Below are positions 15,957-16,902 of a DNA stretch of 64,000 bases, piece after piece. Location of the stretch: the sequence record OR896157.1, one strand, 5' to 3'. Position 1 is the stretch's first letter; every line of letters starts with the position of its first letter. The translations under genes and the position numbers were made by a program. A model generated the notes under the pieces. That model did no database searches, was not told the origin of the DNA, and saw nothing but the letters and a program-made list of their open reading frames with translations. The stretch is from a phage.

Positions 15957-16187
15957 TTAATTACCGTGAGATATTCTAGAAGGTTTCTTACCAAAATAAT
16001 ATTCATATGAGCCATCTAAACGACCTGCTTTAGTGCGGCAATATGAATCCCATTTCTTATAATGCCGCCATTCATCATTGTATCTTGGATGACGGTCAGC
16101 GATTAAAATCTCTAATGGCCAACCAGGCGCAAAGGAACGGAGCCGTTCGACCTTTCTAATGTATCTTTTCTTTAAGATTTTCTTCAT
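15957..16187 (-). CDS. hypothetical protein (basic)
   Basis: 76-aa ORF, Lys/Arg-rich. Confidence 0.4.
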   Translation of the reverse strand: MKKILKKRYIRKVERLRSFAPGWPLEILIADRHPRYNDEWRHYKKWDSYCRTKAGRLDGSYEYYFGKKPSRISHGN

Positions 16188-16405
16188 ATAGATTCCGACA
16201 TTACGTGAGTAGTTCTCTTTCTGATTGTAAATTGAGTTAATTCATCAACTTCACCACAACGCCAAGCGTCATCTTCAGTTTCAAAACCAAGAGCCTCGAA
16301 TAAGTTGCCTAAACGCCAACCTTCGTCAAACTCGGGGTCTCCTGAAAAATAGTAATAGTAATCGCCAGTTACTAAATCTTGAATTACAAAATCAAACTTT
16401 TCCAT
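16184..16405 (-). CDS. hypothetical acidic protein
   Basis: 73 aa, rich in Asp/Glu. Confidence 0.4.
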   Translation of the reverse strand: MEKFDFVIQDLVTGDYYYYFSGDPEFDEGWRLGNLFEALGFETEDDAWRCGEVDELTQFTIRKRTTHVMSESI

Positions 16406-16902
16406 CAGATACTTACCACAGTAATAGCTTCAGGAGCTTTAGGAATAACGATATCTTCTTCAATGTAGAAGAGCTTAAATGTTTCAGCTACACGCATAAA
16501 GTCAATATCATAACCGACTGGAGTTCCAATCAATTCTTGAATCTTATCCATCACTTTATACTGAACTTGATAGAAATCTTCAAGACGAGCATCGAATTCA
16601 TCTTCAGTATAATCACCTTCTGGGATTACAAAGCCAAGCACTTCTGAACAGAACTCTGGAGTGATTTCTTCATTTTCAACACAGTATTCAAAGAAAGCAT
16701 CACCGGAATAATCTTCATTACCCATTCCATTAGGGTCTGAATTATCAGATGCAAAACATTTAGCAACGGCACACCAACCTGAAACGTGTCTAGCATTTAC
16801 AGCATAAATCACATTCTCTTGATAATCATCGCCATCGTTTTCCCATGATACACATGATACTGCATAACCTTTAGGGATAGTTTGACCAAAGCGGAGTTCC
16901 AT
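16405..16902 (-). CDS. hypothetical strongly acidic protein
   Basis: 165 aa, about 23 percent Asp+Glu. Confidence 0.45.
   Translation of the reverse strand: MELRFGQTIPKGYAVSCVSWENDGDDYQENVIYAVNARHVSGWCAVAKCFASDNSDPNGMGNEDYSGDAFFEYCVENEEITPEFCSEVLGFVIPEGDYTEDEFDARLEDFYQVQYKVMDKIQELIGTPVGYDIDFMRVAETFKLFYIEEDIVIPKAPEAITVVSI

What the first reader, a model, noticed from the sequence alone, without database searches (positions are those of the whole stretch)
16184..16902. Two adjacent strongly acidic small proteins (possible DNA mimics)
ORFs 16184-16405 and 16405-16902 are about 23 percent Asp+Glu with few basic residues, and sit beside the NADAR gene in the tRNA-embedded island. Highly acidic small phage proteins are often DNA mimics that inhibit restriction or other DNA-binding defence proteins. 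This is inference from composition only.
Basis: inference. Interest (0 to 1): 0.45.

Follow-up and report, generated by a model that had tools for sequence, protein, structure and literature searches.

The report
Acidic phage proteins beside tRNA genes
Two small, very acidic genes in the tRNA island of a T4-like phage are real, and the larger one belongs to an unnamed phage-only family that recurrently sits next to tRNA genes and RNA-repair genes, which points to the fight over tRNA cleavage rather than to DNA mimicry.

Summary
The window is a Karamvirus (T4-like phage). Both ORFs exist at the stated coordinates, on the minus strand. They are acidic (73 aa: 23.3% D+E, net -11; 165 aa: 20.6% D+E, net -24) and under purifying selection (dN/dS 0.04-0.18). 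Their adjacency is not significant (P about 0.13), and they are not an obligate pair.

The 165-aa protein belongs to PHROG 2290. This family is unnamed and phage-only. I found 573 phage records, 561 clusters and only 2 MAG contigs among 185,579 species genomes. T2 has it; T4 lacks it.

New finding: in 32 of 47 sequence groups the family gene lies within 2.5 kb of co-oriented tRNA genes, or within 3.5 kb of RNA ligase, Pnkp, RlaP or Thg1 genes. In 13 groups it directly abuts one.

Best reading (inference): an acidic decoy or inhibitor, or possibly a cofactor, in the phage toolkit against host tRNA cleavage. DNA mimicry is untested and less likely.

The 73-aa ORF is a lineage-restricted orphan.

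The parts
16405..16902 (-). B165: 165-aa acidic protein, member of PHROG 2290 (unnamed phage-only family). It has the SWENDGD hairpin (residues 19-25) and invariant R137.
   Evidence: phrog_2290, E 2e-52; AF2 pLDDT 96.3.
16184..16405 (-). A73: 73-aa acidic orphan protein (PHROG 23382), restricted to Karamvirus and Kanagawavirus. It is translationally coupled to B165 through an ATGA overlap.
   Evidence: (AF2 pLDDT 56.8, unusable).
16913..17287 (-). 124-aa ORF (PHROG 3355, unknown function), the first gene of the cassette after tRNA-Met.
   Evidence: No relation to the B165 family by hhalign.
15957..16187 (-). 76-aa strongly basic ORF (net +12, pI 10.15; PHROG 7065) whose start overlaps A73's stop. 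It is variable among Karamvirus phages.
15507..15956 (-). gp30.3-family (NADAR superfamily) gene.
   Evidence: PF08010, E 1e-59; a PF08719 NADAR seed from L099 retrieves the Karamvirus gp30.3 homologs by jackhmmer..
15279..15503 (-). 74-aa ORF (PHROG 27825, unknown function), the last gene of the cassette.
14804..20151 (-). tRNA array of 19-20 tRNA genes, all on the same strand as the cassette, in which the cassette is embedded.
21496..21951 (-). 57B (Acb1-type 2H phosphoesterase) homolog upstream of the tRNA island.
   Evidence: 80% identity to T4 57B.
55425..56423 (-). RNA ligase 2 (RnlB) homolog. This phage's RNA-repair ligase is distant from the cassette.
   Evidence: 67% identity to T4 RnlB.

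Best explanation
These are two separate, real accessory genes of a T4-like phage, co-transcribed with the phage's tRNA array.

B165 is a member of a large, unnamed, phage-only family (PHROG 2290). Each member is a single compact cytoplasmic alpha/beta domain with no solved structural relative. Strong net negative charge is conserved across the family. An invariant site is formed by the SWENDGD beta-hairpin turn, G61-N62, Y131, R137 and E140.

The gene is repeatedly placed, in unrelated large phages, either inside co-oriented tRNA arrays or inside RNA-repair operons (RNA ligase, polynucleotide kinase, RlaP, Thg1). I therefore infer that it belongs to the phage toolkit that counters host cleavage of tRNAs.

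The most likely mode of action is stoichiometric. The acidic surface and the invariant hairpin would bind the basic, nucleic-acid-binding face of a protein acting on tRNA. The most plausible target is a host anticodon nuclease or tRNase, blocked by substrate (RNA) mimicry.

What is shown: gene reality, family membership, fold confidence, conservation pattern, phage exclusivity and genomic linkage.

What is inferred: any binding partner, the inhibitor mechanism and the timing of expression.

A73 is a lineage-restricted acidic orphan. Nothing beyond composition and purifying selection can be said about it.
For: Identity and reality
- The window is a Karamvirus, 98% identical to phages VPA32 and PG7.
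- Both genes are under purifying selection.

The family
- 573 phage records carry it, including T2, RB-type, Klebsiella JD18-like and Aeromonas phages.
- There are 139 representatives at 50% identity and 561 clusters, all labelled 'hypothetical' with no Pfam domain.
- Only 2 MAG contigs were found among 185,579 species genomes.
- T4 lacks it in a whole-genome six-frame search. T2 has it immediately upstream of its tRNA cluster.
- The AF2 model has pLDDT 96.3 and pTM 0.88.
- E21, D23 and R137 are invariant. G12, W20, N22, D25, G61 and N62 are at least 90% conserved. Acidity elsewhere is diffuse, and net charge is conserved.

Genomic linkage
- 27 of 47 sequence groups have a tRNA gene within 2.5 kb, and 8 have one within 150 bp.
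- 8 groups have an Rnl, Pnkp, RlaP or Thg1 gene within 3.5 kb, and 5 have one within 300 bp.
- 32 of 47 groups have one or the other, and 13 of 47 directly abut one.
- In L096 the order is RNA ligase, family gene, RlaP, with 4-nt overlaps. In L095 the gene lies between two RNA ligases.
- All 216 nearby tRNAs are on the same strand as the family gene.
- Collapsing all T4-like synteny to one event still gives 24 of 38 against a T4-derived expectation of 19% (P 4e-9). For direct adjacency it gives 11 of 38 against 3.6% (P 6e-8).
- The association was replicated in an independent sample of 13 loci: 5 with tRNAs and 3 with RNA ligases.

Literature
- PMC7824862 describes phage tRNAs, Rnl, Pnkp, RlaP, Thg1 and NADAR/2H as countermeasures to host tRNA cleavage.
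Against: - This is guilt by association only. No binding partner is predicted or tested.
- The baseline for the enrichment comes from T4 alone, and no control family was run. tRNA arrays lie in early accessory regions that collect many small genes.
- 12 of 47 groups show no tRNA, RNA-repair, NADAR or 2H gene in the locus.
- An invariant cluster of four carboxylates plus Asn and Arg could equally be a metal or ligand site of an enzyme.
- T4 manages tRNA repair without this gene.
- The surface charge geometry could not be computed.
Confidence: 0.4

Rival explanations
1. One reading: B165, and perhaps A73, are DNA mimics whose carboxylate array imitates the DNA backbone and blocks restriction enzymes or other DNA-binding defence proteins.
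For: - The pI is very low (4.05-4.12) with few basic residues. Both proteins are more acidic than the T4 DNA mimic Arn (17.4% D+E, pI 4.55).
- Acidity is conserved family-wide.
- Known DNA mimics have many unrelated folds, so the lack of fold similarity is not decisive.
Against: - No match to the Ocr, ArdA or Arn families, or to any solved mimic.
- The family has a compact invariant site rather than only a charge pattern.
- Its recurrent neighbours are tRNA and RNA-repair genes, not DNA-restriction-related genes.
- Other equally acidic ORFs in this window are gp67, gp57A and UvsW.1.
- The motif is absent from the text supplements of two anti-defence catalogues searched.
Confidence: 0.1
2. B165 is a component of the RNA-repair machinery itself. 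It could be a small acidic cofactor that activates or scaffolds Rnl-type ligase, Pnkp or RlaP, analogous in role to Archease for RtcB. Alternatively it could be a metal-dependent end-healing enzyme that complements kinase-only Pnkp modules.
For: - The gene sits tightly inside repair operons in at least 5 independent groups, with overlapping stop and start codons in L096.
- The Pnkp-like neighbours in L062, L074, L084 and L096 are kinase-only, matching T4 Pnkp positions 1-144.
- The invariant E21/D23/D25/E140 plus N22/N62/R137 look like a metal or phosphate site.
Against: - Most family genes sit by tRNA arrays with no ligase in the locus. In this phage RnlB is about 39 kb away.
- T4 has RnlA, RnlB, Pnkp and RlaP but no family member, so it is not an obligate cofactor.
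- A protein of net charge -10 to -29 with about 6% K+R is a poor candidate for binding RNA ends.
- There is no Pfam or fold match to Archease or to any phosphoesterase.
Confidence: 0.2
3. The linkage is positional, not functional. B165 is an early or middle host-takeover protein aimed at some unrelated host target. It rides in the tRNA and accessory region because that region is highly transcribed and tolerant of insertions.
For: - Its neighbours are mostly small unknown ORFs, and no protein family other than B165 recurs across lineages.
- 12 of 47 groups show no tRNA or repair context.
- One member lies 3 kb from a T7-kinase-like early gene.
- MotA-box-like motifs lie upstream, and there is no internal promoter or terminator.
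- No control family was run.
Against: - Enrichment is far above the T4-derived expectation even after collapsing T4-like synteny.
- The gene is embedded in RNA-repair operons that lack tRNA genes.
- The association was replicated in an independent sample.
Confidence: 0.25
4. B165 is a small-molecule or metal binder, for example a sponge for a nucleotide-derived immune signal. The aromatic, Arg, Asn and carboxylate pocket would be the ligand site.
For: - The conserved residues W20, Y13, Y27, Y131, R137, N22 and N62 together with the carboxylates form one cluster.
- Neighbours in T4-like phages include the NADAR and 57B (Acb1-type 2H) genes, which act on nucleotide and ADP-ribose derivatives. 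Each is found within 5 kb in 10 groups.
Against: - No fold match to any solved sponge (Tad1/2, Acb2 and others present in the PDB up to April 2026).
- The four carboxylates would repel anionic nucleotides unless bridged by metal.
- This reading gives no explanation for the tRNA linkage.
Confidence: 0.05

Closest known systems
Phage DNA-mimic anti-restriction proteins (T7 Ocr, ArdA, T4 Arn, phi29/VMY22 p56)
   Same: Small, cytoplasmic, very acidic (pI about 4) phage accessory proteins. They are expressed early and act, or here are proposed to act, by occupying a nucleic-acid-binding site.
   Different: - B165 has a strictly invariant local motif.
- Its genomic partners are tRNA and RNA-repair genes rather than anything DNA-related.
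tRNase immunity proteins that mimic tRNA (colicin D ImmD, colicin E5 ImmE5) and barstar-type RNase inhibitors. This comparison rests on my own knowledge of the literature.
   Same: Small acidic proteins that block an RNase active site by imitating the RNA substrate. This is the mechanism proposed here as most likely.
   Different: - Those proteins are encoded next to their cognate toxin in bacteria or plasmids. B165 is phage-only and has no nuclease neighbour.
T4 Dmd (inhibitor of the RnlA/LsoA RNase toxins)
   Different: Dmd is 60 aa, near neutral (pI 5.2), unrelated in sequence and located elsewhere in the genome.
Archease (cofactor of the RNA ligase RtcB). This comparison rests on my own knowledge.
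   Same: A small acidic alpha/beta protein encoded in an operon with an RNA ligase of a repair pathway.
   Different: - No Pfam or fold match.
- B165 associates with ATP-dependent Rnl-type ligases, and more often with tRNA arrays.
- T4 has the ligases without it.
Phage RNA-repair and tRNA-supply islands (tRNAs, Rnl1/Rnl2, Pnkp, RlaP, Thg1, NADAR, 2H), as described in PMC7824862
   Same: B165-family genes are embedded in exactly these gene sets in many unrelated large phages.
   Different: The family is not listed among the known components in the text searched. It has no recognisable enzymatic domain.

Membership tests
PHROG 2290 (unnamed phage protein family) | Full-length match to the family HMM. 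| tested here: met
   E 2.2e-52, residues 1-159 against profile positions 1-162 of 165.
PHROG 23382 (A73) | Full-length match to the family HMM. | tested here: met
   E 7.7e-32, residues 1-71 against profile positions 1-67 of 67.
Ocr / ArdA / Arn DNA-mimic families | Sequence homology to the family (Pfam or PDB sequence match). | tested here: not met
   No Pfam family for B165 or A73 at E <= 1, and none shared among 105 family members. No PDB sequence relative: the hits are TPR repeat artefacts. The A1 profile finds nothing in the T4 genome, which encodes Arn.
Ocr / ArdA / Arn / p56 / UGI and other solved DNA mimics | Shared fold with a solved mimic. | tested here: not met
   [not shown]
DNA mimic (functional class) | A surface array of carboxylates with the spacing of B-DNA phosphates. 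| not testable with these tools
   Model coordinates are not exposed. Only secondary structure and per-column charge are available.
DNA mimic (functional class) | Binds and inhibits a DNA-binding enzyme in competition with DNA. | not testable with these tools
   This needs experiment or complex prediction.
tRNase immunity / RNase-inhibitor proteins (ImmD, ImmE5, barstar, Dmd) | Shared fold with a solved inhibitor. | tested here: not met
   [not shown]
tRNase immunity / RNase-inhibitor proteins | Encoded next to the cognate nuclease. | tested here: not met
   The neighbours are tRNAs, RNA-repair genes or small unknown ORFs, with no recurrent nuclease. The family is essentially absent from bacterial genomes.
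Archease-like RNA-ligase cofactor | Homology to Archease. | tested here: not met
   No Pfam match and no fold match.
Archease-like RNA-ligase cofactor | Conserved operonic linkage with an RNA ligase. | tested here: inconclusive
   The gene is directly adjacent to Rnl, Pnkp or RlaP genes in 5 of 47 groups, and within 3.5 kb in 8. Most members, including this window, have no ligase nearby, and T4 has the ligases without the family.
Phage counter-tRNA-cleavage gene sets (tRNA arrays plus RNA repair) | Recurrent co-location and co-orientation with tRNA or RNA-repair genes in unrelated phages. | tested here: met
   32 of 47 groups. After collapsing T4-like synteny, 24 of 38 against about 19% expected from T4 (P 4e-9). 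All 216 nearby tRNAs are on the same strand. The baseline is rough and no control family was run.
gp30.3 / NADAR (neighbouring gene 15507-15956) | Match above the Pfam gathering threshold. | tested here: met
   PF08010: 200 bits against a cutoff of 36. A PF08719 NADAR seed retrieves the Karamvirus homologs.

The most novel reading that the evidence does not exclude
PHROG 2290 would be a previously unrecognised third arm of the phage response to host tRNA cleavage, alongside replacement tRNAs and RNA-repair enzymes. It would be a phage-only protein with a new fold. Its acidic surface and invariant SWENDGD hairpin would imitate the tRNA substrate and directly block anticodon nucleases or other tRNA-targeting defence effectors.
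Probability: 0.25. Interest if true: 0.75.

Novelty: new variant of a known kind. Interest (0 to 1): 0.5.

Why it matters
tRNA cleavage by host defence effectors (PrrC, RloC, PARIS, some retrons) is a major line of bacterial immunity. Phages are known to answer it with their own tRNAs and with RNA repair.

A widespread, unnamed protein family is wedged into exactly these gene sets in hundreds of T-even-type and jumbo phages. It has a confident new fold and a sharply conserved site. That makes it a concrete and cheap candidate for a direct inhibitor or cofactor in this conflict.

T2 carries the gene and T4 lacks it, so gain and loss experiments are immediately possible in the best-studied phage system.

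The result also cautions against reading 'small and acidic' as 'DNA mimic' in T4-like genomes. Several equally acidic ORFs in this same window are structural or chaperone proteins.

Tried and rejected
- **Family libraries.** Pfam, NCBIfam and PADLOC gave nothing for either ORF. A Pfam scan of 105 family members gave only scattered single weak hits.
- **PDB by sequence.** The only 'significant' profile hits were designed TPR repeats, built from many sub-threshold repeats around an 'LGN' motif. I rejected these as artefacts.
- **A73 structure.** pLDDT was 56.8 from a 4-sequence alignment, which is unusable.
- **Domain fusions.** Longer family members carry no recognisable extra domain.
- **Remote homology.** hhalign found no homology of the family to T4 trna.3, to A73 or to the upstream 124-aa ORF.
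- **Specific tRNA partner.** The nearest tRNA is tRNA(CAT) in 8 of 27 groups. This is too weak and too synteny-confounded to interpret.
- **Literature.** There were no hits for the T4 trna.2/3/4 ORFs, phrog_2290 or the motif. The motif is absent from the supplements of PMC12373910 and the EVADES preprint. PMC5062991 (Burroughs & Aravind 2016) is not held.
- **Bacterial genomes.** The first scan with the 105-sequence alignment failed for lack of a conserved stretch. A 20-sequence alignment found only 2 MAG contigs.
- **Control family.** I considered a control family for the tRNA linkage, but every seed at hand was either T4-synteny-bound or itself related to RNA repair or NAD. I used a T4-derived baseline instead.

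Full report
**Identity of the window and check of the observation**

A 3-kb stretch around the finding is 97-98% identical to Karamvirus phages (Klebsiella phage VPA32, Enterobacter phage PG7), which are T4-like Straboviridae.

- A73 (16184-16405) is 73 aa with 23.3% D+E, net charge -11 and pI 4.12.
- B165 (16405-16902) is 165 aa with 20.6% D+E (not 23%), net charge -24 and pI 4.05.

They overlap by ATGA and belong to a tight six-gene cassette: a 124-aa ORF, B165, A73, a basic 76-aa ORF, gp30.3/NADAR and a 74-aa ORF. The cassette lies between tRNA-Met and tRNA-Arg inside a co-oriented array of 19 tRNA genes. No sigma-70-like promoter or terminator separates the cassette genes. MotA-box-like motifs lie upstream in the array.

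Both ORFs are under purifying selection against Karamvirus homologs (dN/dS 0.04-0.18), so both are real genes.

They are the 3rd and 4th most acidic of 92 ORFs in the window. Ten of 92 ORFs have pI < 4.5, and the adjacency of two of the four most acidic ORFs has P about 0.13. Three of the other most acidic ORFs are gp67, gp57A and UvsW.1. Acidity is therefore common and non-specific in this genome.

**The two genes are not a unit**

A73 (PHROG 23382) occurs in only 33 phage records, nearly all Karamvirus. Protein searches found four clusters. Its homolog in the Kanagawavirus phage Q7622 sits in the same general region without a B165 homolog nearby.

Its AF2 model is unreliable (pLDDT 56.8). 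hhalign shows no relation to B165. Nothing more can be said about A73 than that it is a conserved, lineage-restricted, acidic orphan.

**B165 belongs to a large unnamed family**

B165 matches PHROG 2290, of unknown function, over its full length (E 2e-52).
- tblastn finds it in 573 phage records. These include T2 and many Tequatrovirus phages, Klebsiella JD18-like, Aeromonas, Morganella and Cronobacter phages.
- An exhaustive HMMER search finds 139 representatives at 50% identity.
- A profile search finds 561 clusters, all named 'hypothetical protein' and without Pfam domains.
- IMG/VR loci include jumbo-phage contigs of 350-520 kb.
- Only two MAG contigs among 185,579 bacterial and archaeal species genomes carry it, so it is phage-only.
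- In T2 and phage teqhad it is the last ORF (171 aa) before the tRNA cluster, after trna.4, trna.3 and trna.2.
- T4 has a 97-bp gap at that position. A six-frame profile search of the whole T4 genome found no family member.

**Structure and conservation**

With a 105-sequence alignment, AF2 gives a very confident model (pLDDT 96.3, pTM 0.88). The model is a long beta-hairpin (residues 12-21 and 25-35), five helices and a closing strand (138-147).

Across the family, E21, D23 and R137 are invariant. G12, W20, N22, D25, G61 and N62 are at least 90% conserved. Y13, Y27, G34, F50, G126, Y131 and V138 are at least 80% conserved, and position 140 is acidic in 88% of sequences. This defines a site around the SWENDGD hairpin turn.

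Acidity elsewhere is diffuse and not position-specific, but net charge is conserved (mean -15). Residues 98-111 are an insertion present in only about a third or fewer of the family.

**The unexpected result: linkage to tRNA arrays and RNA-repair operons**

ARAGORN on the 80 IMG/VR loci showed tRNA genes within 2.5 kb of the family gene in 37 of 77 loci, which is 23 of 38 groups at >= 45% identity. Several genes directly abut a tRNA, at 9-87 bp. All 216 such tRNAs are on the same strand as the family gene.

Pfam-annotated contexts of distant members then showed the gene inside RNA-repair operons.
- In L096 the order is RNA ligase, family gene, RlaP, with 4-nt overlaps. A P-loop kinase and Thg1 lie nearby.
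- In L095 and L102 the gene lies between two RNA ligases.

A jackhmmer search seeded with T4 RnlA, RnlB and PseT and with the L095 and L096 proteins found further cases.
- L060 has Pnkp-like at 115 bp, Rnl at 1 kb and RlaP at 3 kb.
- L062 has a kinase-only Pnkp overlapping the gene and RnlA at 1.9 kb.
- L076 has an RnlB-like gene at 149 bp.
- L038, L046, L047, L058, L074 and L084 have such genes within 1.6-3.5 kb.

These members are only 24-63% identical to each other.

Over 47 sequence groups:
- 27 have tRNAs within 2.5 kb;
- 8 have a repair gene within 3.5 kb;
- 32 have either;
- 13 directly abut one.

From the T4 annotation, the corresponding zones cover about 19% of the genome, and directly flanking genes are about 3.6% of CDSs. 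With all T4-like synteny collapsed to one event, 24 of 38 (P 4e-9) and 11 of 38 (P 6e-8) remain.

Caveats:
- The baseline comes from one genome.
- No control family was run.
- 12 groups show no such context.
- No other protein family recurs next to the gene across lineages.

NADAR and 57B-type 2H genes each lie within 5 kb in 10 groups.

**Interpretation**

Published comparative work describes phage tRNAs, Rnl ligases, Pnkp, RlaP and Thg1, and possibly NADAR, 2H and Macro enzymes, as one functional theme: reversing or bypassing host cleavage of tRNAs (PMC7824862; RlaP background in PMC12776372). B165's family is embedded in this theme.

A protein with net charge -10 to -29 and about 6% basic residues is unlikely to bind RNA itself. 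A protein partner is more likely.

I therefore favour an acidic decoy or inhibitor that occupies the nucleic-acid-binding face of a tRNA-directed host nuclease (confidence about 0.4 for the whole reading, about 0.25 for the specific tRNA-mimic inhibitor).

The main rivals are:
- a cofactor or end-healing component of RNA repair (0.2);
- an unrelated early host-takeover protein whose linkage is merely positional (0.25);
- a DNA mimic against restriction (0.1);
- a ligand or metal binder (0.05).

**Comparison with known families and novelty**

B165 is not a member of any named family. It fails sequence and fold tests for Ocr, ArdA, Arn, p56, tRNase immunity proteins, Dmd and Archease. The defining physical test for DNA mimicry, charge geometry, could not be run.

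No paper in the searchable library mentions the family, its PHROG number or its motif.

If the favoured reading holds, this is a new variant of a known kind, namely phage acidic decoy proteins, aimed at an RNA-centred rather than a DNA-centred defence. If not, it remains a widespread conserved protein of unknown function with a new fold.

Because T2 has the gene and T4 lacks it, the hypothesis is directly testable.

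Noticed in passing
window 14804-20151 (minus strand): The tRNA callers disagree in two places. ARAGORN predicts a 95-nt tRNA-Met at 17977-18071 that Rfam does not support. Rfam finds an extra tRNA-like match at 20067-20151 (39 bits) that ARAGORN misses.
   Followed up: partly
window 18899-19363 (minus strand): A 154-aa ORF (phrog_16521, with a weak N-terminal match to an HNH endonuclease PHROG) lies between tRNA-Met and tRNA-Asp. In phage VPA32 those two tRNAs are only about 158 bp apart. This looks like a mobile insertion inside the tRNA array.
   Followed up: partly
L001 (OP558005.1, Klebsiella phage VPA32) 4805-9581: The deposited record annotates all tRNA genes on the strand opposite to the one ARAGORN and Rfam find in the near-identical window. 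It also includes a 127-nt 'tRNA-Phe'. These are probably annotation errors.
   Followed up: no
window 15957-16187 (minus strand): A strongly basic 76-aa ORF (net +12, pI 10.15) starts inside A73's stop codon. In some Karamvirus relatives (L007, L008) an unrelated 48-aa ORF replaces it, so this slot is variable.
   Followed up: no
window 7464-7694 (minus strand): This is another unknown, very acidic small ORF (76 aa, 25% D+E, net -14; phrog_2900, no Pfam). It is more acidic per residue than either ORF of the finding.
   Followed up: no
window 49714-49962, 61181-61420, 21948-22202: Three of the most acidic ORFs in the window are known T4 proteins: gp67 prohead core, UvsW.1 and gp57A tail-fibre chaperone. 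Acidity does not mark DNA mimics in this genome.
   Followed up: yes
L062 5434-5925, L074 8091-8582, L084 7751-8287, L096 1709-2368: The Pnkp-like genes near the family gene in these loci are kinase-only modules. They match T4 Pnkp positions 1-144 and lack the phosphatase domain.
   Followed up: partly
27 tRNA-proximal groups of loci (e.g. L006, L009, L014, L017, L018, L046, L054, L063): The tRNA nearest to the family gene has the CAT anticodon (Met/fMet/Ile2) in 8 of 27 groups, and is tRNA-Arg(UCU) in 3. The CAT cases are partly explained by T4-like synteny.
   Followed up: partly
window 15526, 19028, 19981, 20760 (minus strand): Sequences on the minus strand match the T4 middle-promoter pattern (MotA box plus -10). 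TATAAATA late-promoter motifs occur at 19956 and 20433. These are pattern matches only.
   Followed up: no
T4 genome NC_000866 72531-72627 (L004 6532-6628): T4 has only a 97-bp spacer where T2 and many relatives carry the 171-aa family gene. The family is absent from the whole T4 genome. This is a natural knockout in the model phage.
   Followed up: yes
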